Source: an uncultured Pseudomonadota bacterium (lineage in GTDB: Bacteria > Pseudomonadota > Gammaproteobacteria > Burkholderiales > SG8-39). From it: a DNA stretch of 64,000 nt. The stretch lies in the NCBI GenBank assembly GCA_963739205.1, contig CAVTZJ010000003.1, positions 205,902 through 269,901 of the forward strand. Direction: 5' to 3'. Shown in pieces: positions 33,505-49,016 of this stretch. Below the pieces are notes generated by a model. The model saw nothing but the letters and a program-made list of their open reading frames with translations. It searched no databases and had not been told where the DNA came from. The translations under genes and the position numbers were made by a program. Positions within the stretch are counted from its first letter, which is position 1. The number at the start of each line of letters is the position of its first letter.

Positions 33505-33544
33505 CTGATGCCCTCGGACTAAGGCCGAATGGCCGGGAGATGAG

Positions 33545-35346: not shown

Positions 35347-35347
35347 T

Positions 35348-36124
35348 GTGCTGAAGAAGCGAATTATTCCGAAATTTCTTATAAAGGGCGGACGCCTTGT
35401 AAAGGGCGTGCGATTCCACGAAAACTTCCGTGAGGCGGGCAATCCCGTCTCCACCGCGAAAGTTTACGACGCATATGGTGTCGATGAACTGATCTTTCTC
35501 GATATCGAAGCCAGCGTCGAGAACAGACCAGTTGTCCACGACATCATCGAACGCGTGTCTGAGGAAGTCTTCATGCCCTTCACGGTCGGTGGTGGCGTAC
35601 GAACGCTGGAAGACATCAATCGACTGTTGCGTGCGGGTGCCGACAAGGTCTGCATCAACTCGGCGGCTGTCGAGCGGCCGAATTTGATTCGCGAGGGTGC
35701 AAACCGCTTTGGCGACCAATGCATTACGGTTGCGATCGACTACCGCGAAATCTCCCCCGGCGTGCGCCAGATTTTTTCTCACTGTGGGACCCGCGCCGCA
35801 CCGGTAGACCCACTCGAATGGGCGTTGCGCATGCAGGATGCTCACTGTGGCGAGATCATCATGTGCTCGATTGATCGCGATGGCACATTGTCAGGGTACG
35901 ACCTCGACCTGATAGCTTCCGCAGCCGAACGCTTGGAAGTACCCCTGATTGCCTCTAGTGGCGCCGGTTCCCTGCTCGACTGCCAAGATGCGCTCGAAGC
36001 CGGCGCTTCGGCGGTGACTATAAGCAGCATGTTTCTCTTCACGGACCATAGCCCCATCAAGGTCCGGTCCTACCTAGCGTCAAACGGTGTCAACGTACGC
36101 GCTCAACGCGGCAGCCACAGCTGA
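35348..36124 (+). CDS. HisF-like TIM-barrel subunit (WbuZ/HisF2-type glycan-locus paralogue)
   Basis: KRIIPKFL, LVKG, DELIFLDI, PFTVGGGV, GADKV, SIDRDGT, IASSGAG. Confidence 0.92.
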   Translation: MLKKRIIPKFLIKGGRLVKGVRFHENFREAGNPVSTAKVYDAYGVDELIFLDIEASVENRPVVHDIIERVSEEVFMPFTVGGGVRTLEDINRLLRAGADKVCINSAAVERPNLIREGANRFGDQCITVAIDYREISPGVRQIFSHCGTRAAPVDPLEWALRMQDAHCGEIIMCSIDRDGTLSGYDLDLIASAAERLEVPLIASSGAGSLLDCQDALEAGASAVTISSMFLFTDHSPIKVRSYLASNGVNVRAQRGSHS

Positions 36125-36798
36125 TGAGACGCGTCCGCACAAGTCTTACCGACGCTCAGCTGGCGAACTACGTTGTCCGTCAACTAAACGGCATATTTCC
36201 CGACGAGCGGCCCATCGCGCTAGATGCACTGCACACCGTCCTGCCCACCACGTTGGACCGCATCGAACATTGCTTTACCAAGATCAGCAATAAGTACTTC
36301 TTCGACGGGTCGCAGGCCGTTTTCAGTCACTTGCACGGCGACCAGTATGCGATGTTTCTGTACCTGCTGGCGAACACTGCACATCGTGCAGGGTTGTCGG
36401 ATGAGGTAGCGACGAAGGTTTACTTGCTCAACAAGGCCCTGCACGGAATAGATGCGTTCTACGAGGTGGAACTTCCCTCCATTTTCCTGTTCGTGCACCC
36501 AATTGCTACGGTATTGGGTCGGGGACGGTATTCCGACCATCTTGTTGTCTATCAACGCTGCGGAGTAGGAAGCAACCACGAAATCTATCCAGAATTGGGC
36601 GAGTTCTTGACGATGCATCCGGGAAGCGCCGTGCTCGGAAATTGTCGTATCGGGCGGAACTGCACGATTGCGACGGAGTCGCTCGTCCTGGATCGGGACC
36701 TGCGTGATGACACTGTCTACATCGGCAATCCTAAGAACTTCACGACCCACGAATTGCGAGCTCGGTTTGCTGCGTGGCGCGCGACTCCAAATGCATAG
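36124..36798 (+). CDS. Serine-acetyltransferase-like left-handed beta-helix acyltransferase
   Basis: Helical N-terminal region (HGDQYAMFLYLLAN), then FVHPIATVLG and GSAVLGNCRIGRNCTI hexapeptide repeats. Confidence 0.72.
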   Translation: MRRVRTSLTDAQLANYVVRQLNGIFPDERPIALDALHTVLPTTLDRIEHCFTKISNKYFFDGSQAVFSHLHGDQYAMFLYLLANTAHRAGLSDEVATKVYLLNKALHGIDAFYEVELPSIFLFVHPIATVLGRGRYSDHLVVYQRCGVGSNHEIYPELGEFLTMHPGSAVLGNCRIGRNCTIATESLVLDRDLRDDTVYIGNPKNFTTHELRARFAAWRATPNA

Positions 36799-36800
36799 CC

Positions 36801-38099
36801 ATGACGAAATCTTTTGACGCCCGACTTCAAGCAGTCATACCTGGTGGGGCCCACACATACTCGCGAGGCGCAGACCAGTTCCCGTCCAATGCCCCGCAGA
36901 TCCTGGCGCGCGGCAAAGGCGCCTACGTCTACGACGACCAGGGCCGGCGCTATCTCGATTACGGCATGGCGCTGCGCGCGGTCAACATCGGCTATGCCGA
37001 GGAGGAGATCGACGAGGCCGCGATCCGCGAAATCCGCAACGGCAACAACCTGACCCGGCCGTCGCTGATCGAGTTGCAGGCCGCAGAGCTGTTCACCGGC
37101 CTGATCGATTCGGCCGACATGGTGAAGTTCACCAAGAACGGCTCCACGTCGGTGTCCGCGGCGGTGAAGCTGGCGCGCGCATTCACCGGCCGGGATCTGG
37201 TGGCGCGCTGTGCCGAGCATCCGTTCTTCTCCTACGACGACTGGTTCATCGGCTCGACCCCGCTGACCCGGGGAATACCGCGCGCGGTGATCGAGCAAAC
37301 GCTGCAGTTCCGCTTCAACGACGCCGCATCGCTGCGTGCGCTGTTCGACCGGCACCCGGGCCAGATCGCCTGTGCAGTGCTCGAGGCGGCGACGAATGCG
37401 CACCCGGATCAGGGCTTCCTCCAGGAGGTGCAGGCGCTTTGCCGGCAGCATGGAGCGGTGCTGATCCTCGACGAGATGATCACGGGATTCCGCTGGCACC
37501 TGAAAGGCGCCCAGCACTACTACGGGTTGCGTCCGGACCTGTGCACCTTCGGCAAGGCCATGGCGAATGGCTTCTCGGTGTCCTGCGTCGCCGGGCGCCG
37601 GGACATCATGGAGCTCGGCGCCATCGAGCCCGCGGGCCGCGAGCGCATGTTCCTGCTGTCGACCACGCACGGGGCGGAAATGGCCGGCATGGGCGCGTTC
37701 GTCGCCACGGTCAAGTTCCTCCAGCGCGAGCCCGTCGTCGAGCATCTCTGGCGCTACGGGCAGCAGCTGATCGACCTGATCAACGGCGCCGCGCGCGAGT
37801 TCGGCGTCGAAGCGAGCCTCAGCGCAGCCGGCGTGCCCTGCTCGCCGCATTACGCGACCCTGGACCGCGCCGGCAACCCGTCGCTGGAGCTGCGCACGCT
37901 GTTCGGGCAGGAGATGGTGCGCCACGGCGTGCTGATGCCATGGATCGCGCTCAGCTACCGGCATGGCCCGGAGGAGCTCGAGCTCACGGGGCGCGCCCTG
38001 CGCGCGACCCTCGAGGTATACAGAAAGGCGCTCGATCAAGGGCCCCAGGCGTTCCTGCTGGGGCCGGCGATCAAGCCCGTGTTCCGGAAATTCAACTGA
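36801..38099 (+). CDS. Class III PLP aminotransferase, glutamate-1-semialdehyde aminomutase-like
   Basis: IPGGAHTYSRG, GKGAYVYD, KFTKNGS, DEMITGFR, TFGKAMANG (PLP Lys), STTHG. Glycan-locus context argues against hemL. Confidence 0.9.
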   Translation: MTKSFDARLQAVIPGGAHTYSRGADQFPSNAPQILARGKGAYVYDDQGRRYLDYGMALRAVNIGYAEEEIDEAAIREIRNGNNLTRPSLIELQAAELFTGLIDSADMVKFTKNGSTSVSAAVKLARAFTGRDLVARCAEHPFFSYDDWFIGSTPLTRGIPRAVIEQTLQFRFNDAASLRALFDRHPGQIACAVLEAATNAHPDQGFLQEVQALCRQHGAVLILDEMITGFRWHLKGAQHYYGLRPDLCTFGKAMANGFSVSCVAGRRDIMELGAIEPAGRERMFLLSTTHGAEMAGMGAFVATVKFLQREPVVEHLWRYGQQLIDLINGAAREFGVEASLSAAGVPCSPHYATLDRAGNPSLELRTLFGQEMVRHGVLMPWIALSYRHGPEELELTGRALRATLEVYRKALDQGPQAFLLGPAIKPVFRKFN

Positions 38100-38869
38100 T
38101 GCTGCGCGATAAAGTCGTTGTGATCACCGGCGGTGCCGGTCTGCTCGGGCGCAGTTTCTGCCGCGCCGTGCTGCAAAACGGCGCGAGCTGCCTGGTCGCG
38201 GACCTGGACGAAGAGCGTGGCACGCGAGCCGCCGCAGACCTCGGCGGCGAGTTCGGCGCGCAGCGCGCCGCCTATTGCCAGGTCGACATCAACGACCCCT
38301 CTTCAGTGGACGCATTGCTCGACACCGCCCGACAGCGCTTCGGCCGCATCGACGCGCTGGTCAACAACGCGTATCCGCGCAACGGCAACTACGGGCGCAA
38401 GTTCGAGGAGGTCACACGCGCGGATTTCTGCGACAACGTATCCCTGCACCTCGGCGGCTACTTTCTCGTGTCACAGAAGTTCATCGCGCGCTTCCGCGCC
38501 CAGGGGCACGGCAACATCGTGAACATGGCCTCGGTGTACGGCTTTCTCGCGCCGCGCTTCGAAATCTATCGCGGCACGACCATGACCATGCCGGTGGAGT
38601 ACGCCGTCATAAAGGCTGGGGTGCTGCAGCTTACGAAGTACTTGGCCCGCTATCTTGCGGGCGAAAACATTCGAGTTAATGCGATCAGTCCAGGTGGGGT
38701 CGCAGATGCGCAACCCGACTCCTTTCTAGCGGGCTATCGCTCGTTCTGCCTAAACAAGGGGATGCTAAGCGAGTGCGACATTTGTGGGGCACTCGTGTTT
38801 CTTCTCTCCGACCAATCACGCTACATGAACGGACAGAACATCGTGGTCGATGATGGGTTCAGCCTCTAG
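38099..38869 (+). CDS. SDR oxidoreductase, PtmA (flagellin modification protein A)-like
   Basis: VITGGAGLLG, LVNNAYPRN, NMASVYG, PVEYAVIKAG (YxxxK), NAISPGG, GQNIVVDDGFSL. Confidence 0.9.
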   Translation: MLRDKVVVITGGAGLLGRSFCRAVLQNGASCLVADLDEERGTRAAADLGGEFGAQRAAYCQVDINDPSSVDALLDTARQRFGRIDALVNNAYPRNGNYGRKFEEVTRADFCDNVSLHLGGYFLVSQKFIARFRAQGHGNIVNMASVYGFLAPRFEIYRGTTMTMPVEYAVIKAGVLQLTKYLARYLAGENIRVNAISPGGVADAQPDSFLAGYRSFCLNKGMLSECDICGALVFLLSDQSRYMNGQNIVVDDGFSL

Positions 38870-38896
38870 CTGGATCGAGACGAATCGCTTCTTCCA

Positions 38897-40189
38897 ATGA
38901 GCTTCCACGTGAAGCGCATCCTGATAATCATGAACAAAGCCAGTCGTGAGGAGCCGATCATGGCTGCGATTCGCGACAGGGTGTTGGCTTTCGATTCCAA
39001 AATTGACGTTCGAATTGTCCGCTTTGAGGACGTGTTTGGCGACCTTGTGCTTGATTTCCGACCGAATGTAATTCTCACGTTTCCGCTCACCAGCATCGGT
39101 ACTGCTGACTTGCTCTATGTCTTCAAGTGGTACTGCGGCGCGGCGGTGGTGTCTTTGCGCGCCGAAGGTGTGGTCAATCCAGACTCACCAAGCAATATTG
39201 CCGACCATGTCGGCTACGACGAGTATGGACCTGAGTTAGTCGATTGGGAGGTGTTCTGGGGTCCAGGAATGGCCAACATCGTGGGTGCGATCCTTGTTGA
39301 GCGGAGAAAGCTTTCGTCCTCGCAAAGATTGCGATACTTCGGATATCCAAGGCTCGAGCGCTACTTCATGCAGAACGAAGAGAAATGTCTGAATGACGTG
39401 ACGCACTTAGTGAGCGAGGCGATACGCGCTTCCGGGAGGGAGCAATCCGTGCTGGTGGCGACGGGCTTTCACTTTGCCAATTACACGCGCGACGAGCTTT
39501 ATGCGGCGAAGGATCTTGACGCAGCCAGTCGGGAAGCAGAGCTGCTCGCGATGATTGAAGCCTCCAAAGTGTTTCGCCAGACCTGGATTGACGGCTTACG
39601 CCGCGCGGCGAACGAGCATCCAGAAGTCCAGTTCATACTGAAGAAGCACCCGAGCGAAAAGACGAACGACTATGCCAGTCTGCAAGGGCTCCCGAATCTC
39701 CTGTATGTGTCCCAGGACGTGGATATTGCAGATCTCATGGAGAGGGCTTCGTTGTTCCTTCACTACGGATCTACCACGCTCGCGGACGCCTACCTTGCGG
39801 GTGTGCCGTCGGTCTACCTGTACTCGGACGACGAGCGGTGCAGGCGGGTGTACAACGATATGGGTTGGCCTTCGACCGAGTCGCGCCGGGTAGTCGACAT
39901 CCCTTTGGTAATCAATGATTTTCTGTCGGGCGGAATTCAGTTTCGGAAGACGCCAGAGGTGTCAGCGCTTCTTGAGTATCACTTCAATATCCAAGAGGGA
40001 AGACCCTACCAACCATCGCGAGAGATTGCAGAACTGCTGCTCATGCCGGGCAAGCCGCAGAAGCCTTCTCCAAGTGACCGATACTTCAGGCGTGCCATAG
40101 CAAGGCACCTGTATCTGCGCGCACGTAGGGCGATTGGCCGGCTGATCAGGCGACTGCTCCGCCGTGCACGAGGTAAATCAGCGCTATGA
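38897..40189 (+). CDS. Hypothetical surface-carbohydrate protein with GT-B-like features; candidate nonulosonate transferase
   Basis: 430 aa, low-GC codon use. RAEG, FWGP, GYPRLE, LKKHP, HYGSTT, AYLAGVP motifs; follows the CMP-nonulosonate pathway genes. Confidence 0.6.
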   Translation: MSFHVKRILIIMNKASREEPIMAAIRDRVLAFDSKIDVRIVRFEDVFGDLVLDFRPNVILTFPLTSIGTADLLYVFKWYCGAAVVSLRAEGVVNPDSPSNIADHVGYDEYGPELVDWEVFWGPGMANIVGAILVERRKLSSSQRLRYFGYPRLERYFMQNEEKCLNDVTHLVSEAIRASGREQSVLVATGFHFANYTRDELYAAKDLDAASREAELLAMIEASKVFRQTWIDGLRRAANEHPEVQFILKKHPSEKTNDYASLQGLPNLLYVSQDVDIADLMERASLFLHYGSTTLADAYLAGVPSVYLYSDDERCRRVYNDMGWPSTESRRVVDIPLVINDFLSGGIQFRKTPEVSALLEYHFNIQEGRPYQPSREIAELLLMPGKPQKPSPSDRYFRRAIARHLYLRARRAIGRLIRRLLRRARGKSAL

Positions 40190-42035
40190 ATTCAAGCTTC
40201 GGACACTCATCGAACACTTCACCAATAGGGCGCGACCTTCCTTGAGATTTCTGATTGCGTATGTAGAACAACACCTGATCATCCGACTAGCGGCAGCAGC
40301 GATTTGCCTAGCTGCACTGGACATGGCGGGTGTGGCGGTGGTGTTCCCTTACCTGTCGGTGCTGACCGTTGAGTCCCCGGATGTTGGCGAGGGTTTGTTG
40401 GCGCGGCTCTATGTATGGACGGGTGCCGCGTCTCGTCAGCAGTTCCTCGTCGCAGTATCTGCGGCCCTGGCGGGATTCTTCCTTCTCAAGTTCGCGATCG
40501 CCTACCTCGCGAACCGCGTCAAATACCGGACCAACGCGCGCATCACCACCGGCCTGTCTGACGACCTGTTCAGGCGCCTGCTGGGCGCCGATTACTCGTT
40601 TCTCGCCAACCACAGCGTGTCCGAGATGACCGGCGTGATCAACGCCGAGACCATCCACGCAACGCTGTGCCTGGATGCGTGGGTCTCGATCGCGACCGAG
40701 GCCCTGTTTCTTCTGTTGATCCTCGCCACCATCACCGCAATCGACGTGCGGCTCGCCGCGCTGCTGGTGGCGGGCTTGGCGGTGCTTACCGCGATCCTCT
40801 ACGTCGGCGTGATCAGGCCGACAACGCGCCTGGGCGCCCAGCAGACGCAGATCCACCTGCGCCAGTACCGCTTCCTCTACAGCGTCGTCAACGCCCTGAA
40901 GGACATCAAGATCCTGGGCCTCGAGCGCGCATCCGAGGCGGAGCACCGCGACCTGAACACGCGCTACGCCGGTGCGATCGCCTCCTTCTACGTCTACCAG
41001 ACGCTGCCGCGCGCCGTTCTCGAGCTCCTGGTGATGGTGGGGCTGGTAGGCGCATCGGTGCTGGTGGTGCTGACCGACCAGGACCTCAAGGCGGCCGTTC
41101 CCGTGATCGGCCTGCTCGCCGTGGCCGCGTGGCGCGTGGTGCCCTCCTACAGCCGGATCATCGGCGCCTACGGCACCTACAAGTACTACAAGCCCTCGCT
41201 CGGCGTGGTGCAGCGCCTGTACGAGGACTTGGGCGGCGCGCAGGTGCGGCAGCGCGCCGCGCCGCTTGCCTTCGAGCATGCGCTGGAAATCCACGACCTG
41301 CATTTCTCCCACGGCGACAAGGCGGTGCTCGCCGGCGTGTCGCTCACGATCGCCAAGGGCCGTGCCATCGGCATCGTCGGCCTTTCCGGCTCCGGCAAGA
41401 CCACGTTCCTCGACGTGCTGGCCGGCTTGCGCCGCCCGCAACGCGGCCGCTTCCTCCTCGATGGCAAGGACTTCGATCCGTTCGAAGCCGATACCTTGCG
41501 CCGGCTGTTCGGCTACGTGCCGCAGAACGTCACGCTCATCGACGACAGCATCGCCTTCAACATCTCCTTCGAGCGCCAGCCGGACCGGGAACGCCTGGAG
41601 CGGGCGATGCGCGTTGCGCGCATCGACGAGTTCATCGCCTCGTTGCCCGAGCGATTCGAGACCCAGGTCGGGGAGAACGGCGTGCGCGTGTCCGGCGGCC
41701 AGAAGCAGCGCATCGGCATTGCGCGCGCCCTGTACCGCGACCCGCAGTTGCTCATCTTCGACGAAGCCACCAGTTCCCTGGACAACGTAACGGAACGCGA
41801 GCTGAGCGCGGAGATCGCGGGCCTGTCGGGAAGCAAGACGCTGATCATCGTCGCTCACCGGCTGAGCACAGTGGAGCGCTGCGACCAGATTCACGTCTTC
41901 GATCAGGGCCGCGTCGTGGGCAGCGGCACACATGCAACGCTGCTGCAATCCTGCCCCGAATACCGCGCCCTGTACCTGGCGCAGGAGCCGGGCACGGCGG
42001 ACGCGGACCAGGCACGCATGGCGAGGGCCTCGTGA
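40186..42035 (+). CDS. ABC transporter (fused TMD+NBD), PglK/WlaB/HepA-like glycan flippase; start probably hit by a 1-nt indel
   Basis: Multiple TM helices, GLSGSGKT, VPQN, SGGQKQRIGIARA, IFDEATSSLD, AHRL. The ATGA-coupled ATG at 40186 is one frame off the body. Confidence 0.9.
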
Positions 42036-42706
42036 TCCGGCGCGTTCTGCATCGCCTGCGGCGTGATTGGCACGCCGCGCGCGAAGCTGCCAACGCACGC
42101 AGGCGAAGCGCGAGGCGGCGCGCGCTCGAGCAGCGCCTCGCGGACAAGGGCATCCGCAAGCTGAATCTCGCCTGCGGCAACCAGAAAGTGCCCGGCTTCT
42201 TCGGCATCGACCTGGTGGACGGCGCGGACCTGCGCCTGGACCTGGCGCACATGGACCTGCCATTCCCCGACGCGAGCCTCGAGGCGGTGGTGTGCATGTC
42301 GGCGATCAATTACTTCACGCGCGCGCGCGCGCAGCAGCTGGTGCGCGAGACGCACCGCGTGCTGCGCGCCGGCGGTGTGTGCCGGATGGGCGTGCAGGAC
42401 ATGAAGTCGCTCGCCGAGCGCTACGTGCGCGGCGACCGGGAGCTCTTCTTTCAGAAACTTGCCGACGGCCGCGACCGCTTCGAGGGCCCGACCCTCGGCG
42501 ACAAGTTCGCGGCATGGTTCTACGGCTATGCCGTCGGCGCACACCGTTGCGAGTACTTCTACGATTTCGAGTCGCTCGCACATCTGTTCCGCGAAGCGGG
42601 CTTCAGCGTCATCGAGCGCAAGGCATTCCGCGAAAGCCGCATCGCGGAGGTCGAGCTGCTCGACAACCGCGCCGACCAGATGTTCTTCCTCGAGGCAATC
42701 AAGTGA
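42032..42706 (+). CDS. Class I SAM-dependent methyltransferase
   Basis: GTGA-coupled start. KLNLACG, LPFPDASLE, THRVLRAGG. Confidence 0.82.
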   Translation: MIRRVLHRLRRDWHAAREAANARRRSARRRALEQRLADKGIRKLNLACGNQKVPGFFGIDLVDGADLRLDLAHMDLPFPDASLEAVVCMSAINYFTRARAQQLVRETHRVLRAGGVCRMGVQDMKSLAERYVRGDRELFFQKLADGRDRFEGPTLGDKFAAWFYGYAVGAHRCEYFYDFESLAHLFREAGFSVIERKAFRESRIAEVELLDNRADQMFFLEAIK

Positions 42707-43923
42707 CCGCCGTGCCTTCCGTGCTGCAACGCGCACGCCGCGGCGCTCGCACCTGGCTGCACGCGGCAAAGAGCCTCGGTCCCGCCCAGATGTCGCTCGG
42801 CTTGCGCTACGCGATGAGCCTGCCGTTTCCTGCTCGCAGCGACCGGGAGCACCTGGAAGCGACCGTGCAATGGCTCTGCGCCGCCCACGACGCGGCCGGC
42901 GGCGACGGCGTGTCGGCCGCCTTCAGCCTGACGAGCGGATGGGACGTCGCCTACCCTGAAACCAGCGGCTACATCCTCGCTACGTTCCTCGCCTGCGGGG
43001 ATTACCTGGAGGATGCGACGCTGCCCGCGCGTGCGCGCCGCATCGGCGACTGGGAAATCGCCATCCAGGCGCCCAACGGCGGCGTGCTGTCGCGCCCGGG
43101 AAAGCCGGAAACGCGGGTGTTCAATACCGGGCAGGTGGTACTCGGCTGGCTCGCCTTGTTCGAGCGCACGCAAGACGCGCGCTATCTCGAGGCGGCGCGG
43201 CGCGCGGGCGACTACCTGCTTGGCCTGCAGGAGGCGGACGGCACCTGGCAGCGCGACACCTATTGCGGCGCGCGCACCTATCACGCACGCACCGACTGGG
43301 GCCTGCTCAGGCTCGCACGGCTGAGCGGCGATACCCGCTACGCCGAAGCGGCCCGACGCAACCTGCGCTGGGTGATGCGACAGCAGCAGGACAACGGCTG
43401 GTTCCGCAATTGCGGCTTCAATCAGGACGATCCGATCACGCACGTCATCGACTACACGCTGATCGGCGTGCTCGAGTGCGCGCTGCTCGAGCCCGGCGCC
43501 TTCGACCGCGGCCCGGCGGATCTGATTGCGCGCAGCGCGGAGGCGATCTGCGGCATCGTCGCGCAGGCCGGCATCGGCGGCATCGCCGGCATGATTCCAG
43601 CCTCATTCGACTCCAGCTGGCGCAGCCGCGACCGGGACTCGTGCCTGACCGGCAACGCGCAGCTCGCCTATACGCTGCTGCGGCTTCATGGCCTCGCGCC
43701 CAATCCGGGCTACGTCGCTGCCGCAGATTCGCTGATCGCGGCGCTCAAGGGCACGCAGGCGCTCGGCAGCGCGCCGGCCAGCGTGCGCGGCGCGCTGCCC
43801 GGAAGTTTTCCGATGCACAGCGGCTACCTCGCCAACGGCTACCCGAACTGGGGGGCCAAGTTCTTCGCCGACGCGCTGCTCGCCAGCCTGACGCGCGCGC
43901 GCCCGGTCGCGGTCGCCGCCTGA
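42703..43923 (+). CDS. Hypothetical alpha/alpha-barrel protein with QW-type (prenyltransferase/squalene cyclase-like) repeats
   Basis: QAPNGG, QEADGTW, QQDNGWF repeats; YPETSGY, VFNTGQV, LTGNAQ, YPNWGAKFFAD. Confidence 0.65.
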   Translation: MTAVPSVLQRARRGARTWLHAAKSLGPAQMSLGLRYAMSLPFPARSDREHLEATVQWLCAAHDAAGGDGVSAAFSLTSGWDVAYPETSGYILATFLACGDYLEDATLPARARRIGDWEIAIQAPNGGVLSRPGKPETRVFNTGQVVLGWLALFERTQDARYLEAARRAGDYLLGLQEADGTWQRDTYCGARTYHARTDWGLLRLARLSGDTRYAEAARRNLRWVMRQQQDNGWFRNCGFNQDDPITHVIDYTLIGVLECALLEPGAFDRGPADLIARSAEAICGIVAQAGIGGIAGMIPASFDSSWRSRDRDSCLTGNAQLAYTLLRLHGLAPNPGYVAAADSLIAALKGTQALGSAPASVRGALPGSFPMHSGYLANGYPNWGAKFFADALLASLTRARPVAVAA

Positions 43924-43935
43924 GAGAAAGTCCCC

Positions 43936-44670
43936 ATGGCCCTGCTCTCCTATCCCAAGCGACTCATGCACCGCCTCGGAAACCTCTACGCCAGGGAGAT
44001 CTGCCGGCGCGAATTCCTGGCCCAGGAATTTCTCGGCATCAACGAGCGGCCGGTCGAGTACCGGTTCGTGTTCGAGCAGCTCACCCAGGCCTTCCCGAAG
44101 ACCGTGCTCGACGTCGGCACGGGCAGAACCGCGCTGCCGCAGCTCATGCGCACTTGCGGCTTCCTGGTCACCGCCATCGACAACATCAGGGACTACTGGC
44201 CGAGCGGCATGGTCAATCGCCATTACCACGTCCTCGACGACGACATCCTTGCGCCCAATACCGGCGGGCCGTTCGATTTCATCACCTGCGTGAGCACCCT
44301 CGAGCACATCCGCGATCACGCGCGCGCGATGCGCAACATGCTCTCGCTCCTGAGGCCAGGCGGGCGACTGGTGGTGACGTTCCCCTACAACGAGAAGAGC
44401 TACGTGGAGAACGTCTACGCCTTGCCCGGCTCCATCGGCGCCGACAAGTATCCGTTCGTCACGCAGGTGTTCTCGCGGAACCAGCTCGAGCAATGGACGC
44501 GCGACGGCGGCGCGCAGATCGTCGCGCAGGAGTATTGGCGCTACTTCGACGGCGCGTACTGGACCATCGGGCGGCGCGTCGTGCCGCCGGTGCGGGTCGA
44601 CGCGGGCGACCTGCACCAGATTTCGTGCGTCGCGCTGGTGAAGGGCGCGGCCGCAGTCCGCGCGCCGTGA
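43936..44670 (+). CDS. Class I SAM-dependent methyltransferase
   Basis: NERPVEY, VLDVGTG, ITCVSTLEHI, LLRPGGRLVVTFP. Confidence 0.85.
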   Translation: MALLSYPKRLMHRLGNLYAREICRREFLAQEFLGINERPVEYRFVFEQLTQAFPKTVLDVGTGRTALPQLMRTCGFLVTAIDNIRDYWPSGMVNRHYHVLDDDILAPNTGGPFDFITCVSTLEHIRDHARAMRNMLSLLRPGGRLVVTFPYNEKSYVENVYALPGSIGADKYPFVTQVFSRNQLEQWTRDGGAQIVAQEYWRYFDGAYWTIGRRVVPPVRVDAGDLHQISCVALVKGAAAVRAP

Positions 44671-45875
44671 AGATCCTCTACCTGGCCAACGGCTTGCCGC
44701 ACTACTTCAACCTGGTTCTGAGCAAGCTCAACGCCACCCCGGGCATGGAGGTCGTCGTGGTCGCGCCGCGCGGACCTGGCCGGCACATCGGCGACGGCGT
44801 GTTCCAGTCGCGCGACGGGATCGGCTTTCGCATCATCGAACTGGAGGAATACGCCAATCGGCTGTTCGCGGGCTTCCGCGGCCTGCCCCGCCTGCTGTTG
44901 CGCGAGCGTCCCGACGTCATCGTGTTCCCGGAGTACCTGCTCACGGGATTCTTCCTGCACCCCGGGCTCGCGCTCGCGCGCATGCTCGTCGGCGCAAAGC
45001 TGGTGCAGAAGTCCATCCCGTTCCTGCTCCCGGATTACGAGACAGCGCGCAAACGGCTGCGCGGGCCCTTGCCGCGGCCTGCGACGCCAATCGGCAGGCT
45101 GCTACAAGCGGTCGGCCTGCGCGAGGTGATGCTGCGTGCCGCGCTGGCGCTGCGCGCCTACTGCTATCGCCGGCTGGCCGCGCACGTGAATTACGTCGAC
45201 GCGGCCAGGGAAATCTACGGCAGCTACGGGGTTGCGCCCGACCGGATCTGCGTGACGCGCAATTCGCCCGATACCGACGCAATGCGCCGCACCGAGGCCG
45301 CGCTGCAAAGGGCCGGCGATGCGCCGGTGCGCCTGCCTTTTCGCCTGCTGCACGTAGGGCGCCTGGTCACCGAAAAGCGCGTCAACCTCCTGCTCGAGGC
45401 CATGCCGCTGGTGCGCGCGCGGCTGCCGCAGGCGGAACTGGTGATCGTCGGCGACGGGCCGCAGCGCGCCGCGTACGAGGCGCAGGCCGCGCGGCTGGGC
45501 CTCGCCGGCGCCGTGCGTTTCGTCGGTGCCGTCTACGATCCGCTGGTGCTCGGCCGGCACTTTCTGTCTGCCTCGGTGTTCGTGCTGCCAGGACTCGGCG
45601 GGCTCTCCATCAACGAAGCGATGTTCTACGGCATGGCCATCGTCTGCTCCGCCGGCGACGGCACGGAGAAGTTCCTCGTGCGCGAGGGCTACAATGGCAC
45701 CTTCTTCCGCACCGACGACCGCGACAGCCTCGCCGAGGCGATCCTGAGGCTGATGGCCGATCCGCAGGAACTGCTGCGCATGGGTGCCCGCTCCCGCGGC
45801 ATCATCGAGCGCGAAGTCAACATCCACACCGTGATCGACGCCTACCGCAAGGCGTTCTCCCGCGCATGCGCCTAG
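44667..45875 (+). CDS. GT4 glycosyltransferase
   Basis: HVGRLVTEKRV, VGDGP, PGLGGLSINEAM, DGTEKFLV. Confidence 0.88.
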   Translation: MKILYLANGLPHYFNLVLSKLNATPGMEVVVVAPRGPGRHIGDGVFQSRDGIGFRIIELEEYANRLFAGFRGLPRLLLRERPDVIVFPEYLLTGFFLHPGLALARMLVGAKLVQKSIPFLLPDYETARKRLRGPLPRPATPIGRLLQAVGLREVMLRAALALRAYCYRRLAAHVNYVDAAREIYGSYGVAPDRICVTRNSPDTDAMRRTEAALQRAGDAPVRLPFRLLHVGRLVTEKRVNLLLEAMPLVRARLPQAELVIVGDGPQRAAYEAQAARLGLAGAVRFVGAVYDPLVLGRHFLSASVFVLPGLGGLSINEAMFYGMAIVCSAGDGTEKFLVREGYNGTFFRTDDRDSLAEAILRLMADPQELLRMGARSRGIIEREVNIHTVIDAYRKAFSRACA

Positions 45876-46996
45876 ACCGCCGGAAAATCCTCATCGTCGT
45901 GGGCACGCGACCAGAGGCGATCAAGATCGCGCCCGTGCTGCGTGCCCTGCGCAGCGCCGGGCACGCGGCGCAAGTGGAAGTCTGCGTCACGCGGCAGCAC
46001 AGCGAGCTGCTCGATCCGGTGCTCGAGCTCTTCGGCGTTCGCCCGGCGTTCGACCTGGCGCTGATGAAACCGAACCAGAGCCTCGCGGCCCTGACCTCCC
46101 GCGCGCTCGTCGCGCTGGACGAGGTGTACGCGTCGTTCGGCCCCGGCGTGGTGGTCGTGCAGGGCGATACCACCACGGCGCTGGCGGCCAGCCTGTCGGC
46201 GTTCTACCGGCGGCTGCCTGTCGCGCACGTCGAGGCCGGGCTCCGCACGGCCGACCTGATGGCGCCCTGGCCCGAGGAGCTGAATCGAAGGTTGACGGGC
46301 GTGATGGCGTCGATTCATTTCGCGCCCACGGAGCGGGCGCGGCAGAACCTCCTGCGCGAAGGCGTGGCGGCGGAGCGCATCCATGTGACCGGCAACACCG
46401 CGGTCGATGCCATCCTCAGCGTCGTGGAACGCCTGCGCGGGGAGGTGGACTTGCGGACGCAGCTGGAGCGCAAGTTTAGCTTTCTCGATCCGCAGCGGCG
46501 TCTGATCCTCGTTACCGGGCATCGCCGCGAGAGCTTCGGCGGCGGCTTCGAGCGCATTTGCGCAGCGCTCGCCGAGCTTTCGCGCAGGGCGGACGTGCAA
46601 ATCGTGTACCCGGTGCACCTTAACCCCAACGTGCGCGGCCCGGTGTTCGGTATCCTAGGCGGCTTGCGCAATGTGCATCTCATCGAGCCGGTGGACTACC
46701 TGGCGTTCGCTTACCTGATGACGCGCAGCCATCTCATCATTTCCGATTCCGGCGGCGTGCAGGAGGAGGCGCCATCGCTGGCCAAGCCGGTGCTGGTCAT
46801 GCGCGATGTCACCGAGCGGCAGGAGGCCGTGGAAGCGGGCGTCGTCAGGCTCGTCGGCACGGACGTCACGCGCATCGTCGGCGGCGCCGAGCGCCTGCTG
46901 GACGACGCCGCCGACTACGCGAACATGGCGCGCGGCATCAATCCGTTCGGCGATGGCCGCGCCGCCGAGCGCATCGCCGGCATCCTCGTCCAATGA
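45866..46996 (+). CDS. wecB: Non-hydrolysing UDP-GlcNAc 2-epimerase
   Basis: GTRPEAIK, QGDTTT, HVEAGLRT, TGHRRESFG, SDSGGVQEEAPSL, NPFGDG. Confidence 0.96.
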   Translation: MRLDRRKILIVVGTRPEAIKIAPVLRALRSAGHAAQVEVCVTRQHSELLDPVLELFGVRPAFDLALMKPNQSLAALTSRALVALDEVYASFGPGVVVVQGDTTTALAASLSAFYRRLPVAHVEAGLRTADLMAPWPEELNRRLTGVMASIHFAPTERARQNLLREGVAAERIHVTGNTAVDAILSVVERLRGEVDLRTQLERKFSFLDPQRRLILVTGHRRESFGGGFERICAALAELSRRADVQIVYPVHLNPNVRGPVFGILGGLRNVHLIEPVDYLAFAYLMTRSHLIISDSGGVQEEAPSLAKPVLVMRDVTERQEAVEAGVVRLVGTDVTRIVGGAERLLDDAADYANMARGINPFGDGRAAERIAGILVQ

Positions 46997-48252
46997 CTGC
47001 TTCCGATATGCGCATGCGAAAACTGGGCGTGATCGGCCTGGGCTACATCGGCCTGCCGACTGCGGCCTTGTTTGCCTCCCGGGGCTTCGAGGTCGCGGGA
47101 ATCGACGTCGCCGCCAACGTGGTGGACACCGTCAATCGCGGCGGCGTGCATATCGTTGAGCCGGGGCTCGACATCGCCGTCCGTTCCGCCGTCGCTTCCG
47201 GGTCGCTGCGCGCCTCGACGAAGCCCGAGCCCTGCGATGCGTTCATCATCGCGGTGCCGACGCCTTTCCGCGACGGTCACGTGCCGGACCTGCGCTTCAT
47301 CGAGGCGGCGACGCAGTCGCTCGCTCCCGTCTTGCGCGCAGGCAATCTGGTAGTGCTCGAGTCCACTTCGCCCGTGGGAACCACCCGGGACATGGCAATC
47401 GCGCTGCAGCGCCTGCGCCCCGATCTGCGCTTTCCGGCGCCGGGCCAGGCGGCCGAGGACGTTTTCGTGGCCCATTGCCCGGAGCGCGTGCTGCCGGGCA
47501 ACGTGATGCGCGAGCTGATCCAGAACGACCGGGTCGTCGGCGGCCTGAGCGCGCGCAGCACGGAGCGCGCGATCGCCCTCTACCGCAATCTGGTCGAGGG
47601 AGAGTGCGTCGCGACGGACGCCGAGACCGCCGAAATGGTGAAGCTGACCGAGAACGCGTTCCGCGACGTGAACATCGCGTTTGCGAACGAGCTGTCGGTC
47701 ATCTGCGGGCGTCTCGATCTGAACGTCTGGGACGTGATCCGCCTGGCGAATCGGCATCCGCGCGTGAACATCCTGCGGCCGGGACCAGGCGTCGGCGGGC
47801 ATTGCATCGCCGTGGATCCCTGGTTCATCGTGCACTCTGCGCCGCAGGAGACCAGGCTCATCCGCGCCGCGCGTGAAGTCAACGACGCCAAGCCGCAGGT
47901 AGTGCTCGACGAGGTCGCGCGCGCGGCCAAGGCTTTCGCATCGCCGGTGATCGCCTGCCTGGGCCTCGCGTTCAAGCCCGACATCGACGACTTGCGCGGG
48001 AGCCCAGCACTCGCCATCGTCGCGGAACTGGGCCGCGCCGGCCTCGGCCGGTTGCTGGTCGTCGAGCCCCATATCGGCGCGCTGCCGACGCCGCTCGCGC
48101 AGCTCGCCGGCCTCGAGCTGGCAGAGGTGAACCAGGCAGTGTCCAAGGCCGACATCGTGGTCTTCCTGGTCAATCACAGGGCTTTCGCGGCAATTGAGCT
48201 GGAACAACTGAAGGGCAAGTCGGTCGTGAACGCCTGCGGGTGGCGCCGGTGA
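46993..48252 (+). CDS. wecC: UDP-ManNAc dehydrogenase
   Basis: GLGYIGLPTA, LESTSPVG, HCPERVLPG, EMVKLTEN, GVGGHCIAVDPWF, AFKPDIDDLR. Confidence 0.96.
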   Translation: MTASDMRMRKLGVIGLGYIGLPTAALFASRGFEVAGIDVAANVVDTVNRGGVHIVEPGLDIAVRSAVASGSLRASTKPEPCDAFIIAVPTPFRDGHVPDLRFIEAATQSLAPVLRAGNLVVLESTSPVGTTRDMAIALQRLRPDLRFPAPGQAAEDVFVAHCPERVLPGNVMRELIQNDRVVGGLSARSTERAIALYRNLVEGECVATDAETAEMVKLTENAFRDVNIAFANELSVICGRLDLNVWDVIRLANRHPRVNILRPGPGVGGHCIAVDPWFIVHSAPQETRLIRAAREVNDAKPQVVLDEVARAAKAFASPVIACLGLAFKPDIDDLRGSPALAIVAELGRAGLGRLLVVEPHIGALPTPLAQLAGLELAEVNQAVSKADIVVFLVNHRAFAAIELEQLKGKSVVNACGWRR

Positions 48253-49016
48253 GCGCGCTCACGGCGGCGGTGCGGGGCTGGATACGGCGGCTCGGCGTGG
48301 ATGTCGTGCGCTACCACGGCTTCGGCCAGGAGCCGCTGCCCGCGGATTTTGACACCAAGGCCGCAGACATCATCCGCAGGGTACGCCCATACACGATGAC
48401 GTCGCCGGAACGCCTGTTTTCGCTGATCCACGCGGTCCGCTACGTGTCGGCGGCATCCATCCCTGGGGACGTCGTCGAGTGCGGAGTCTGGCGGGGCGGC
48501 AGCATGATGGCCTCCGCGCTGACGTTGCTGGAGTGTTCCGATACGCAACGCGAGCTGCATCTTTTCGACACTTTCGAGGGAATGAGCCCGCCCACCGCTC
48601 TCGACGTGACAGTAGACGGGCAGACGGCTAGCGACCTGCTCGCGTCGCCGCGCACCTCCGACCCCGAGTCCCCGTGGTGCTATGCGGGAATCGACGACGT
48701 GCGAGCCGCGATGTGCAGCACCGGGTATCCCTTGGAGCGCATCCATTACGTACAGGGACGGGTCGAAGACACTATTCCAGGAAACGTGCCGGCGCGGATC
48801 GCGATTCTGCGGCTGGATACCGACTGGTACGAGTCCACGCGCCACGAGCTGGAGCACCTATACCCATTGCTCAGCCCGGGGGGCGTGCTGGTCCTGGATG
48901 ACTACGGCCACTGGGCCGGATGCCGAAAAGCCGTCGACGAGTATCTGGACGCGCACGGCATTAAGCTTTTCCTCACTCGGGTTGACTATACCGGGCGCAT
49001 CGCCATCAAGCCCTGA
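48249..49016 (+). CDS. TylF/MycF/NovP-family sugar O-methyltransferase
   Basis: VECGVWRGGS, FDTFEG, LRLDTDWYEST, LDDYGHWAG. Confidence 0.93.
   Translation: MSALTAAVRGWIRRLGVDVVRYHGFGQEPLPADFDTKAADIIRRVRPYTMTSPERLFSLIHAVRYVSAASIPGDVVECGVWRGGSMMASALTLLECSDTQRELHLFDTFEGMSPPTALDVTVDGQTASDLLASPRTSDPESPWCYAGIDDVRAAMCSTGYPLERIHYVQGRVEDTIPGNVPARIAILRLDTDWYESTRHELEHLYPLLSPGGVLVLDDYGHWAGCRKAVDEYLDAHGIKLFLTRVDYTGRIAIKP

What the first reader, a model, noticed from the sequence alone, without database searches (positions are those of the whole stretch)
42703..43923. QW-repeat alpha/alpha-barrel protein embedded in a glycan operon
About 406 aa with three QxxxGx(W/V) repeats of the type seen in prenyltransferase/squalene-hopene cyclase barrels, and conserved-looking YPETSGY, FNTGQV, CLTGNAQ and NWGAKFF motifs. 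No obvious signal peptide. It is GTGA-coupled between two methyltransferases and upstream of GT4-wecB-wecC. No standard O-antigen pathway needs such a fold. Inference: an unrecognised glycan-tailoring enzyme, e.g. a uronate C5-epimerase for ManNAcA, a hydrolase/lyase, or a prenyl-handling enzyme.
Basis: partly seen in the sequence, partly recalled or inferred. Interest (0 to 1): 0.65.

Follow-up and report, generated by a model that had tools for sequence, protein, structure and literature searches.

The report
Orphan sugar-tailoring barrel enzyme, methyltransferase-coupled
This gene encodes a cytoplasmic helical-barrel protein of a large, uncharacterised family that always sits beside, or is fused to, enzymes that decorate cell-surface sugars; it is most likely a sugar-modifying enzyme, possibly an epimerase, but its chemistry is untested.

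Summary
The ORF is real: 42703-43923 (+), 406 aa, with a GTG start that overlaps the upstream stop. The AlphaFold2 model (pLDDT 94) is a single 12-helix (alpha/alpha)6 barrel. No Pfam or NCBIfam family is matched convincingly, and the best PDB folds share only 10-15% identity. These are GH88 hydrolases, cellobiose/GlcNAc 2-epimerases and GH76.

The family is large, with over 2000 clusters at 50% identity. It occurs in Bacteria, candidate-phyla-radiation (CPR) lineages, haloarchaea and Asgard archaea. It has its own invariant residues: E86, T87, H247, Y251, C314, Q320, K386 and D390. These lie at or just before the starts of the inner helices (K386 and D390 within the last one).

The firm result is context. 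A four-gene module (small methyltransferase, barrel, second methyltransferase, GT4) is conserved as a unit, including in CPR lineages. The barrel also occurs fused to either methyltransferase, to formyltransferases, to GT4 and to radical-SAM domains.

Linkage to wecB/wecC is not conserved among the closest homologues, but it recurs in all three haloarchaeal loci examined.

Best guess (about 0.35): an epimerase or isomerase acting on a lipid-linked glycan residue, whose product the partner transferase then fixes. This rests on analogy with AglQ, Agl32 and VpsJ, to which kinship is only superfamily-level. The main rival is a GH127-like cysteine glycosidase.

The parts
42703..43923 (+). Target gene: 406-aa cytoplasmic (alpha/alpha)6-barrel protein of an orphan family. 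NCBI's annotation pipeline (PGAP) names homologues 'prenyltransferase/squalene oxidase repeat-containing protein'.
   Evidence: Translation. AF2 model with pLDDT 94 and 12 barrel helices. Foldseek matches. Family size. Invariant residues.
42032..42706 (+). Small class-I methyltransferase-like protein, 224 aa, with motif I LNLACG. It is the barrel's conserved upstream partner and is fused to the barrel in other genomes.
   Evidence: Weak Methyltransf_11 and NCBIfam methyltransferase hits. Sequence. Lies within 300 bp of the barrel in 15 loci. 47-68% identical across module-bearing loci. Fusion proteins P0139, P0133 and P0140.
43936..44670 (+). Methyltransf_23-type SAM methyltransferase, 244 aa. 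It is the barrel's conserved downstream partner.
   Evidence: Pfam E = 4e-18. Directly downstream in 12 loci. Fused to the C-terminus of the barrel in the 601-aa protein of L097.
44667..45875 (+). GT4 glycosyltransferase, the fourth gene of the conserved module.
   Evidence: Pfam Glycos_transf_1. NCBIfam GT4 hits. GTGA start junction. Conserved at position +2 at 33-56% identity.
40164..42035 (+). Fused membrane-domain/ATPase ABC exporter, PglK/MsbA-like, a candidate flippase for a lipid-linked glycan. It lies upstream of the module in several homologous loci.
   Evidence: Pfam ABC_tran and ABC_membrane. The best NCBIfam hit is PglK, below its cut-off. Conserved upstream in L001, L002, L005 and L007.
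38897..40189 (+). 430-aa protein with sub-threshold matches to the BFO_1060-family glycosyltransferase and to TIGR04396. It is a candidate nonulosonate transferase.
   Evidence: NCBIfam hits of 94 and 88 bits, both below cut-off. Conserved upstream of the ABC gene in homologous loci.
45866..46996 (+). WecB, the non-hydrolysing UDP-GlcNAc 2-epimerase.
   Evidence: TIGR00236 at 461 bits, above cut-off.
46993..48252 (+). WecC-type UDP-ManNAc dehydrogenase.
   Evidence: All three UDPG_MGDP_dh domains. 54-59% identical to the copies in L010, L013 and L097.
48240..49016 (+). TylF-type O-methyltransferase. It recurs downstream of the module in homologous loci.
   Evidence: Pfam TylF E = 1.6e-44. Present in L001, L002, L008 and L009.

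Best explanation
The gene encodes a soluble, cytoplasmic, single-domain (alpha/alpha)6 'six-hairpin' enzyme. It belongs to a large orphan family that works as part of a glycan-tailoring module.

In this operon, a lipid-linked oligosaccharide is built on the inner face of the membrane. The glycan contains a legionaminic-type nonulosonate and probably ManNAcA.

Proposed mechanism: the GT4 adds a residue. The barrel then changes the configuration of that residue, or of a neighbouring one, by epimerisation or isomerisation. The candidate acid/base residues are the family-invariant C314, H247, Y251 and K386, which lie in the inner-helix start motifs (K386 one turn into the last helix). The two flanking SAM methyltransferases then methylate the product and so fix an otherwise reversible step. 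Finally the PglK-like ABC exporter flips the finished glycan.

What is shown: the fold, the cytoplasmic location, the family and its invariant residues, the conserved four-gene module, and the domain fusions.

What is inferred: the substrate, the epimerase chemistry, the product-trapping logic, and the roles of individual residues.

The confidence given (0.35) is for the specific epimerase-plus-trap mechanism. The broader claim, a cytoplasmic glycan-tailoring component coupled to methyltransferases and a GT4, I hold at about 0.85.
For: Fold:
- The AF2 model has pLDDT 94 and pTM 0.93 and shows 12 barrel helices.
- The best PDB matches are GH88, cellobiose 2-epimerases and other AGE-family epimerases, and GH76, at TM 0.60-0.66 and 10-15% identity.

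Orphan status:
- Only short, marginal or sub-threshold Pfam and NCBIfam hits, and no PDB sequence match.

Family and invariants:
- 2054 representatives at 50% identity.
- Found in Bacteria, CPR phyla, haloarchaea and Asgard archaea.
- Family-wide invariants are E86, T87, Y84, Y90, Q122, T142, H247, Y251, C314, Q320, Y375, K386 and D390. They lie in the conserved motifs that open the six inner helices, as judged from the helix boundaries of the model.

Module:
- The order methyltransferase-like, barrel, MT23, GT4 is conserved as a unit at comparable identities. This holds in Nitrospira, Geobacteraceae, Elusimicrobiota, Gemmatimonadales and five CPR lineages.
- 50 of 63 long loci carry a methyl-, formyl- or acetyl-transferase of the partner types. 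These sit at position -1 or +1 in most loci where they were mapped.

Fusions:
- methyltransferase-like + barrel
- barrel + MT23
- radical-SAM/SPASM + methyltransferase + barrel
- GT4 + barrel and barrel + GT4
- barrel + LicD + GT4
- barrel + formyltransferase

Operon: GTGA-coupled junctions, and no promoter-like site inside 38-53 kb; terminator-like hits are no more than expected from shuffles.

Analogy:
- Three other orphan six-hairpin proteins in glycan loci have genetic evidence, or a proposal, for epimerisation of lipid-linked glycan residues, each followed by tailoring.
- Agl32/VNG1058H converts GlcA to IdoA, and sulfation follows (PMC12624080, PMC13308652).
- AglQ is co-transcribed with the aglP gene (PMC3827465); that AglP is a SAM methyltransferase rests on my own knowledge.
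- VpsJ is proposed to convert ManNAcA to L-GulNAcA, after which glycine and acetyl groups are added (PMC13463779).

Acidic sugars:
- wecB and wecC lie directly downstream here and in all three haloarchaeal loci.
- 34 of 63 loci carry a marker of an acidic sugar, such as a dehydrogenase, AsnB, a CapK-like ligase or nonulosonate genes.
Against: - Kinship to AglQ/Agl32 and to VpsJ is only superfamily-level. hhalign gives 96% probability and E = 2e-9 over 160-171 columns with a shifted hairpin register. The match to a GH127 glycosidase scores the same and is longer (239 columns).
- Most of the closest homologous loci lack wecB/wecC within 10 kb. ManNAcA therefore cannot be the universal substrate.
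- In haloarchaea and Acidobacteria a heparinase II/III-like protein sits next to the barrel. By my own knowledge that is the fold of dermatan-sulfate epimerase, so it is an alternative candidate for any uronate C5-epimerase role.
- Two of the partner classes, formyltransferase and AAC(3)-like acetyltransferase, act on amines. The epimerase model does not explain this.
- The catalytic residues of AGE-type epimerases are not recognisable: there is only one invariant His.
- No member of the family has been studied experimentally, and no paper was found.
Confidence: 0.35

Rival explanations
1. It is a GH127-like cysteine glycosidase, transglycosylase or lyase. It would trim, remodel or set the length of the nascent glycan in the cytoplasm. 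A comparable case is MmpH, which cuts methylmannose polysaccharide inside a methyltransferase/glycosyltransferase cluster.
For: - The most frequent Pfam near-hit across the family is the GH127 catalytic domain. The score is 24.0 bits against a cut-off of 24.9 here, and it passes the cut-off in relatives.
- hhalign against a GH127 protein gives the longest in-register alignment, 239 columns. Invariant H247 falls on the GH127 'PIGH' motif and invariant C314 on the Cys of its 'NETC' motif.
- The top structural matches are hydrolases: GH88, GH105 and GH76. MmpH (7qsj) is among them.
- The order methyltransferase, barrel, methyltransferase, GT4 resembles my recollection of the mycobacterial MMP cluster. 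That comparison was not tested here.
Against: - The protein has only one conserved Cys. By my recollection of GH127, it would need the Zn site Cys3-Glu and the nucleophile Cys; the GH127 middle and C-terminal domains seen in real GH127 proteins are also absent.
- The protein is cytoplasmic, and it is fused to biosynthetic transferases. A hydrolase inside an assembly line for a short lipid-linked glycan is hard to rationalise.
- No pair of carboxylates typical of six-hairpin glycosidases is evident. D390 lies about two turns into the last helix (residues 382-396).
Confidence: 0.2
2. It is a non-catalytic, or only substrate-presenting, subunit. The aromatic-lined barrel would bind the polyprenyl-linked glycan, or its terminal sugar, and hand it to soluble methyl-, formyl- or acetyl-transferases and GT4 enzymes.
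For: - The partner at the neighbouring position changes between subfamilies (methyltransferase, formyltransferase, AAC(3)-like acetyltransferase), while the barrel stays the same.
- Fusions to each kind of transferase except the AAC(3)-like acetyltransferase were found.
- The family has seven invariant Trp plus several invariant Tyr and Phe.
- Homologues are annotated 'prenyltransferase/squalene oxidase repeat'.
Against: Invariant polar residues (E86, T87, H247, C314, Q320, K386, D390) lie in the inner-helix start motifs, which suggests catalysis rather than binding alone. No isoprenoid-binding or Zn motif is present.
Confidence: 0.15
3. It is a true prenyltransferase, a class II terpene cyclase or a LanC-type thioether-forming enzyme.
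For: Weak hits to SQHop_cyclase_C, LANC_like and squalene cyclase models. The genome's paralogue nearly reaches the Prenyltrans cut-off.
Against: - No DxDD motif, and a single barrel instead of two.
- No CHG or WCxG motif of LanC, and only one conserved Cys.
- All scores are below the curated cut-offs.
- The alignments cover only the generic hairpin motif.
- The genomic context is glycan assembly, not terpenoid or peptide biosynthesis.
Confidence: 0.03

Closest known systems
Halobacterium salinarum Agl32 (VNG1058H) and Haloferax volcanii AglQ, archaeal N-glycan epimerases
   Same: - Both are soluble, single-domain six-hairpin barrels encoded inside glycan-assembly gene clusters.
- They have an AGE-like or GH88-like fold but lack AGE catalytic residues.
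- Agl32 acts on the assembled dolichol-phosphate-linked tetrasaccharide; for AglQ the substrate level is unresolved.
- The step is followed by tailoring: sulfation after Agl32, and aglQ is co-transcribed with aglP, which by my own knowledge encodes a SAM methyltransferase (PMC12624080, PMC13308652, PMC3827465).
- A 'PET' motif opens an inner helix in both families: YPETSGY here and (D/E)PETPVR there. AglQ T38 in that motif is functionally important.
   Different: - It is a different sequence family. The family profile hits these proteins only at E = 1e-6 to 1e-4 per genome, over about 65 residues.
- hhalign gives 160 columns in a shifted register, no better than the GH127 control.
- H247 is matched by a mostly conserved His, but in that shifted register; C314, Y251 and K386 could not be compared.
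Vibrio cholerae VpsJ, a proposed new-class C5-epimerase converting ManNAcA to L-GulNAcA on the lipid-linked disaccharide
   Same: - An orphan barrel with AGE-like fold hits, sitting between a GT4 (VpsI) and other glycan genes.
- It is proposed to act after ManNAcA transfer and before tailoring (PMC13463779).
- The window also carries wecB and wecC.
- The genome's paralogue sits next to a CapK-like ligase, just as VpsJ lies close to the CapK-like VpsH.
   Different: - It is not a member of the same family. VpsJ-like proteins score only E = 1e-7 to 1e-3 per genome.
- hhalign skips a hairpin. H247 and C314 are not conserved; only Y251 is.
- This genome has no WecG/VpsK-type transferase.
- VpsJ's own activity is proposed from a deletion phenotype, not shown biochemically.
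GH127 / DUF1680 beta-L-arabinofuranosidases (HypBA1 type)
   Same: This is the closest known family by profile comparison: 239 columns in register, with H247 and C314 aligned to conserved GH127 His and Cys positions. It is also the recurrent Pfam near-hit.
   Different: The score is below the Pfam cut-off. The protein has no middle or C-terminal beta domains and, by my recollection of GH127, lacks its Cys3-Glu zinc site and nucleophile Cys. It is cytoplasmic and biosynthetic in context rather than catabolic.
AGE superfamily (GlcNAc 2-epimerase, cellobiose 2-epimerase) and GH88 unsaturated glucuronyl hydrolase
   Same: These are the best structural matches, at TM 0.63-0.66 over about 390 columns.
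   Different: Identity is 10-15%. PF07221 gives no hit and GH88 scores 13 bits against a cut-off of 26.6. The family has only one invariant His, whereas AGE enzymes use a His pair (PMC13308652).

Membership tests
Class II terpene cyclase / squalene-hopene cyclase | DxDD catalytic motif, and two fused alpha/alpha barrels | tested here: not met
   No D.DD motif in the sequence. The model is a single 12-helix barrel of 406 aa. SQHop_cyclase_C scores 20.2 bits against a cut-off of 26.1.
Class II terpene cyclase / squalene-hopene cyclase | QW repeat motifs | tested here: inconclusive
   Two exact QxxxGx(W/V) matches and one QxxxGW variant, at hairpin spacing. They align to cyclase QW regions only weakly, with per-domain E-values of 5 or more. 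The motif is shared widely across the superfamily.
LanC-like lanthionine cyclase | Zn ligands Cys-Cys-His (WCxG and CHG motifs) | tested here: not met
   Neither motif is present. Only C314 is conserved family-wide. LANC_like scores 16.0 bits against a cut-off of 23.2.
GH127 beta-L-arabinofuranosidase | Pfam PF07944 above cut-off, plus the GH127 middle and C-terminal domains | tested here: not met
   24.0 bits against a cut-off of 24.9, covering model positions 121-232 only. The protein is a single domain. True GH127 proteins in the same searches score 282-303 bits and carry all three domains.
GH127 beta-L-arabinofuranosidase | Cys3-Glu zinc site and a nucleophile Cys | tested here: not met
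   Only one family-wide Cys exists. It aligns with the 'ETC' Cys of GH127. No other conserved Cys is present. The residue roles in GH127 come from my own knowledge.
AGE superfamily 2-epimerases/isomerases | (alpha/alpha)6 fold | tested here: met
   Foldseek TM 0.63-0.66 to 3wkf, 5zhb, 4z4l, 3vw5 and 3gt5.
AGE superfamily 2-epimerases/isomerases | Sequence family (PF07221), and the catalytic His pair with Glu | tested here: not met
   P0001 gives no PF07221 hit even at E = 10. H247 is the only invariant His.
D-glucuronyl C5-epimerase (GlcE, PF06662) | C5-epim_C domain above cut-off, plus the N-terminal beta domains | tested here: not met
   12.6 bits against a cut-off of 23.3. The profile hits PDB 6hzz only at E = 0.41. 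The model has no beta domains.
AglQ/Agl32 archaeal glycan epimerase family | Sequence membership | tested here: not met
   Presumed family members were recovered from Halobacteriales genomes (alignment A4). They are identified by the HDPET motif, which matches AglQ H34/E37/T38, and by a C-terminus like that of VNG1058H. The barrel-family profile matches them only at E = 4e-6 to 7e-4. hhalign gives 160 columns in a shifted register.
AglQ/Agl32 archaeal glycan epimerase family | Functional hallmarks: a soluble single barrel in a glycan-assembly cluster, next to a tailoring enzyme | tested here: met
   Compare PMC3827465 and PMC12624080.
AglQ/Agl32 archaeal glycan epimerase family | Epimerase activity on a lipid-linked glycan | not testable with these tools
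   This needs a knockout with glycan NMR or mass spectrometry, or an in vitro assay.
VpsJ-type proposed ManNAcA C5-epimerase | Sequence membership, and a position between VpsI (GT4) and VpsK (WecG) | tested here: not met
   GT4 / VpsJ-like / WecG trios were found in Enterobacterales genomes. The profile matches them only at E = 3e-7 to 1e-3. hhalign shows that H247 and C314 are not conserved. The window's own genome has no WecG family protein.

The most novel reading that the evidence does not exclude
This is a founding member of a fourth, much larger and pan-domain family of six-hairpin enzymes. These would epimerise sugar residues on lipid-linked glycans using a Cys/His (or Lys/Tyr) acid-base pair. 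They would be physically coupled, often fused, to an irreversible 'trapping' transferase (methyl, formyl, acetyl or glycosyl). This would be a general design principle for making rare sugar configurations after glycosyl transfer, in Bacteria, CPR lineages, haloarchaea and Asgard archaea.
Probability: 0.3. Interest if true: 0.75.

Novelty: new variant of a known kind. Interest (0 to 1): 0.58.

Why it matters
Rare sugar configurations such as L-GulNAcA and IdoA, and heavy methylation, shape how surface glycans are seen by phages, immune systems and neighbouring cells. For many glycans the enzymes that make these features after glycosyl transfer are unknown.

This family has over 2000 clusters at 50% identity across Bacteria and Archaea. 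It is currently mis-named as a prenyltransferase or squalene cyclase repeat protein, and no member has been characterised.

The conserved four-gene module and the natural fusions define a compact, testable unit. If the barrel is an epimerase, many glycan gene clusters would gain an assignment for an unexplained step. The recent single-organism findings on Agl32, AglQ and VpsJ would also be extended to a general mechanism. If it proves to be a cytoplasmic hydrolase or a substrate-presenting subunit, that would also be new for assembly of lipid-linked glycans.

Tried and rejected
1. A zinc site formed by C188, C237 and C314. All three are invariant among close homologues, but only C314 survives family-wide. 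Rejected.
2. Terpene cyclase, prenyltransferase and LanC. Their defining motifs are absent. Rejected.
3. A Tat or Sec signal. The N-terminus is basic and contains 'RR', but it has no hydrophobic region, is modelled as helices and is not conserved in the family. Rejected.
4. PF25840, listed for most homologues. It turned out to be 'Ulvan_lyase_N', only as a faint hit, and it is not in the local Pfam copy. Uninformative.
5. It is not conserved among the closest homologues.
6. Membership in the VpsJ family. I found VpsJ-like proteins by synteny in 401 Enterobacterales genomes. They are only remote relatives.
7. Retrieving Hbt. salinarum VNG1058H by a primer-derived DNA pattern in 401 Halobacteriales genomes. 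No match was found. Its family was instead recovered through weak profile hits.
8. Calibrating the hhalign scores against GH127 and LanC proteins. The matches to AglQ and VpsJ proved no more specific than these controls.
9. PDB searches with the two methyltransferases, looking for MMP-cluster MeT1-like relatives. Only generic hits appeared.
10. Literature searches for PF25840 and for 'squalene oxidase repeat' together with polysaccharide terms. Nothing was found.
11. Three-dimensional distances between the invariant residues could not be measured, because model coordinates are not exposed.
Full report
**Observation**

The ORF at 42703-43923 (+) is open and encodes 406 aa. Its GTG start overlaps the TGA of the upstream gene. 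Homologues of 85-93% identity start at the same residue.

Two QxxxGx(W/V) motifs lie at 122 and 176, and a QxxxGW variant lies at 228. Their spacing of 52-54 residues matches the hairpin period. Two or more exact matches occur in only 0.5% of shuffles.

There is no signal peptide and no membrane segment.

The operon is tightly coupled. GTGA junctions lie at 42032, 42703 and 44667, and a 12-nt spacer precedes 43936. No promoter-like site lies inside 38-53 kb, and terminator-like hits are no more frequent than in shuffled sequence.

**What the protein is**

Pfam and NCBIfam give only short, marginal or sub-threshold hits to many six-hairpin families. These are Pec_lyase, GH127, SQHop_cyclase_C, LanC, GH76, GH88 and C5-epim_C. 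PDB sequence searches give nothing significant beyond the generic hairpin motif.

The AlphaFold2 model, built on 44 homologues, is very confident (pLDDT 94, pTM 0.93). It shows a single barrel of 12 helices preceded by two N-terminal helices. Foldseek against the PDB returns GH88 unsaturated glucuronyl hydrolases, cellobiose 2-epimerases and other AGE-family epimerases, GH76, GH105 and MmpH. TM-scores are 0.55-0.66 and identity only 10-15%. The protein is therefore an orphan family inside the six-hairpin superfamily.

**The family**

More than 800 close relatives were found, and 2054 representatives at 50% identity. Members occur in these groups:
- Nitrospira, Geobacteraceae and Elusimicrobiota
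- Gemmatimonadota, Acidobacteriota and Latescibacterota
- Planctomycetota and Bacteroidota
- several CPR phyla
- haloarchaea and Asgard archaea

The NCBI annotation pipeline (PGAP) names members 'prenyltransferase/squalene oxidase repeat-containing protein' or 'terpene cyclase/mutase family protein'.

Across 145 representatives the conserved polar residues are Y84, E86, T87, Y90, Q122, T142, H247, Y251, C314, Q320, Y375, K386 and D390. Seven Trp are also conserved. Judged by the helix boundaries of the model, these residues lie in the conserved motifs that open the six inner helices (K386 and D390 within the last helix). That is the usual catalytic face of this fold (the mapping is my inference).

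Of the three Cys that are invariant among close relatives, only C314 is universal. A Cys3 zinc site is therefore excluded. No DxDD or LanC motif exists.

**Genomic context in the window**

The window holds a long glycan operon. In order, it contains:
- legionaminic-type nonulosonate genes (NeuC-like, NeuB, CBS-nucleotidyltransferase, CMP-transferase)
- an amidino unit (WbuX, HisH, HisF)
- an acetyltransferase and an aminotransferase
- a BFO_1060/TIGR04396-like candidate nonulosonate transferase
- a PglK-like ABC exporter
- the small methyltransferase, the barrel, the Methyltransf_23 methyltransferase and GT4
- WecB and WecC
- a TylF methyltransferase and further methyltransferases

**Context of homologues**

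In loci whose barrel is 35-58% identical, the four genes methyltransferase-like, barrel, MT23 and GT4 travel together at similar identities. This includes five CPR lineages. The small methyltransferase is even better conserved than the barrel. The ABC exporter and the candidate nonulosonate transferase lie upstream in several of these loci. True wecB/wecC lie within 10 kb in only three.

More distant subfamilies replace the neighbouring partner:
- A formyltransferase, with GT, AsnB-like amidotransferase and heparinase II/III-like genes nearby. This type is seen in Acidobacteriota and others.
- An AAC(3)-like N-acetyltransferase plus a GNAT acetyltransferase. This type is seen in Gemmatimonadota, Latescibacterota and Asgard archaea.

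All three haloarchaeal loci examined show the order wecB, wecC-like dehydrogenase, sulfatase-family gene, heparinase II/III-like gene, barrel, a small ORF and GT4, at least in part.

Of 63 loci of 15 kb or more, 50 contain one of the four partner transferase types and 34 contain a marker of an acidic sugar. No control set was available, so these are frequencies, not enrichments.

**Fusions**

The following natural fusions were found:
- methyltransferase-like + barrel
- barrel + MT23 (601 aa, in a phosphonate-bearing glycan locus)
- radical-SAM/SPASM + methyltransferase + barrel (1000-1500 aa)
- GT4 + barrel and barrel + GT4
- barrel + LicD + GT4
- barrel + formyltransferase

These fusions are the strongest evidence that the barrel acts in the same pathway step as these transferases, on the cytoplasmic side.

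**Comparison with the literature**

Three orphan six-hairpin proteins in glycan clusters have recently been linked to epimerisation of glycan residues after, or around, their transfer to the lipid carrier.

- Hbt. salinarum Agl32 (VNG1058H). Its deletion replaces IdoA by GlcA and abolishes the later sulfation. Its fold is AGE-like but lacks AGE, GlcE and DS-epimerase catalytic residues (PMC12624080, PMC13308652).
- Hfx. volcanii AglQ. It is soluble and co-transcribed with aglP, and T38 and K52 are important for its function (PMC3827465). That AglP is a SAM methyltransferase rests on my own knowledge.
- V. cholerae VpsJ. It is proposed as a new class of C5-epimerase that turns lipid-linked ManNAcA into L-GulNAcA before glycine and acetyl groups are added (PMC13463779).

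I tested membership in these families directly.

VpsJ-like proteins were found by synteny, as GT4 / ~390-aa protein / WecG trios, in a sample of 401 Enterobacterales genomes. AglQ/Agl32-like proteins were found in 401 Halobacteriales genomes. The latter are identified by an HDPET motif matching AglQ H34/E37/T38 and by C-termini like the primer-derived end of VNG1058H.

The barrel-family profile reaches both groups only weakly. hhalign gives 96% probability and E = 2e-9 over 160-171 columns with a shifted hairpin register. A GH127 protein gives the same score over 239 in-register columns, with H247 and C314 aligned to conserved GH127 His and Cys positions. A LanC-like protein gives 94.5%. VpsJ-like and AglQ-like proteins match each other at only 22% probability.

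The kinship is therefore at superfamily level only. The functional analogy rests on fold, location and context, not on family membership.

**Interpretation**

With high confidence (about 0.85), this is a cytoplasmic enzyme-like component of a glycan-tailoring module that is functionally coupled to SAM methyltransferases and a GT4.

The specific chemistry is unproven. I favour an epimerase or isomerase whose reversible product is fixed by the partner transferase (about 0.35). The reasons are:
- the analogy with Agl32, AglQ and VpsJ, where tailoring depends on or accompanies the proposed epimerisation;
- the difficulty of placing a hydrolase inside a cytoplasmic assembly line;
- the swap of partner transferases around a constant barrel;
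- the presence of uronate or nonulosonate pathways in many loci;
- an invariant set of Cys, His, Lys and Tyr, of the kind used as acid/base pairs by sugar epimerases (for example GDP-mannose 3,5-epimerase; this comes from my own knowledge).

The weaknesses of this view are:
- there is no specific homology to the known epimerases;
- a heparinase II/III-like candidate epimerase sits next to the barrel in some lineages;
- the formyl- and acetyl-transferase partners are specific for amines, which the model does not explain;
- wecB/wecC are absent near most of the closest homologues.

The rivals are a GH127-like cysteine glycosidase or trimming enzyme (0.2), a substrate-presenting subunit (0.15), and a cyclase, prenyltransferase or LanC-type enzyme (0.03 or less).

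**Distribution in the genus**

The window's copy is absent from 16 genomes of the same genus, and part of the operon has lower G+C. This fits a variable, possibly acquired glycan island.

A second, more distant family member lies about 200 kb upstream in the same contig. It sits in an exosortase-type exopolysaccharide locus, in the order CapK-like ligase, barrel, formyltransferase, Wzy_C. It is split by a frameshift in this genome but is intact in two genomes of the same genus that were checked (G817, G809); a third (G813) has a similar match that was not examined.

Noticed in passing
L098 6719-7976 (= G000:C3:6719-7976, about 200 kb upstream of the window, minus strand): A second family member (35-48% identical over the two aligned pieces) lies in an exosortase (EpsH) exopolysaccharide locus. 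The order is AsnB-like, GT4, GT4, CapK-like ligase, barrel, formyltransferase, Wzy_C, Wzz. In this genome it is split into two reading frames near 7626-7642. Two genomes of the same genus (G817, G809) carry an intact orthologue that is 81-89% identical.
   Followed up: yes
window 38897-40189: This 430-aa protein has no Pfam hit. It matches the NCBIfam BFO_1060-family glycosyltransferase (94 bits) and TIGR04396 'surface carbohydrate biosynthesis protein' (88 bits), both below cut-off. It is conserved upstream of the ABC exporter in homologous loci, which fits a nonulosonate transferase.
   Followed up: partly
window 45866-48252 and the whole genome G000: WecB and WecC (UDP-ManNAcA synthesis) are present, but the genome has no WecG/TagA/CpsF-family transferase (PF03808). 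ManNAcA must be transferred by another enzyme, perhaps the adjacent GT4, as the haloarchaeal gene order also suggests.
   Followed up: partly
L085 8973-15456 (Gemmatimonadota), and similar loci L016-L036: A distant subfamily of the barrel sits in a different setting: AAC(3)-like N-acetyltransferase, barrel, GNAT acetyltransferase, ribose-5-phosphate isomerase, TRAP transporter (DctPQM). This looks more like uptake or salvage than glycan assembly, so the family may not have a single function.
   Followed up: no
L021 6620-11110 (Geobacter sp. UBA4057); P0133, P0140, P0142, P0151: Giant proteins of 1000-1500 aa combine radical-SAM/SPASM, a methyltransferase-like domain and the barrel. Their N-terminal region (up to about 500 aa in the largest) gave no Pfam hit at E <= 1e-5.
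   Followed up: no
L086 618-3074; L099 7184-8938; L131 8181-10004: Large heparinase II/III-like ('alginate lyase family') proteins are encoded in these biosynthetic loci, next to the barrel in the two haloarchaeal loci and about 7 kb upstream of it in the Acidobacteriota locus. Whether they carry a signal peptide was not checked. By my own knowledge this fold is shared with dermatan-sulfate epimerase 1, so they are candidate uronate C5-epimerases themselves.
   Followed up: no
L097 8793-19899 (an Enterobacterales genome): This glycan locus combines WecC with phosphonate biosynthesis genes (PEP mutase/cytidylyltransferase fusion, phosphonopyruvate decarboxylase, Fe-ADH, CDP-alcohol transferase), an AsnB-like gene and a barrel-methyltransferase fusion.
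   Followed up: no
window 32000-40000 against its flanks: G+C drops to 55-58% in the nonulosonate and amidino part of the operon, against 68-72% in the flanks. The barrel cassette is absent from 16 genomes of the same genus. This suggests a mosaic, horizontally acquired glycan island.
   Followed up: partly
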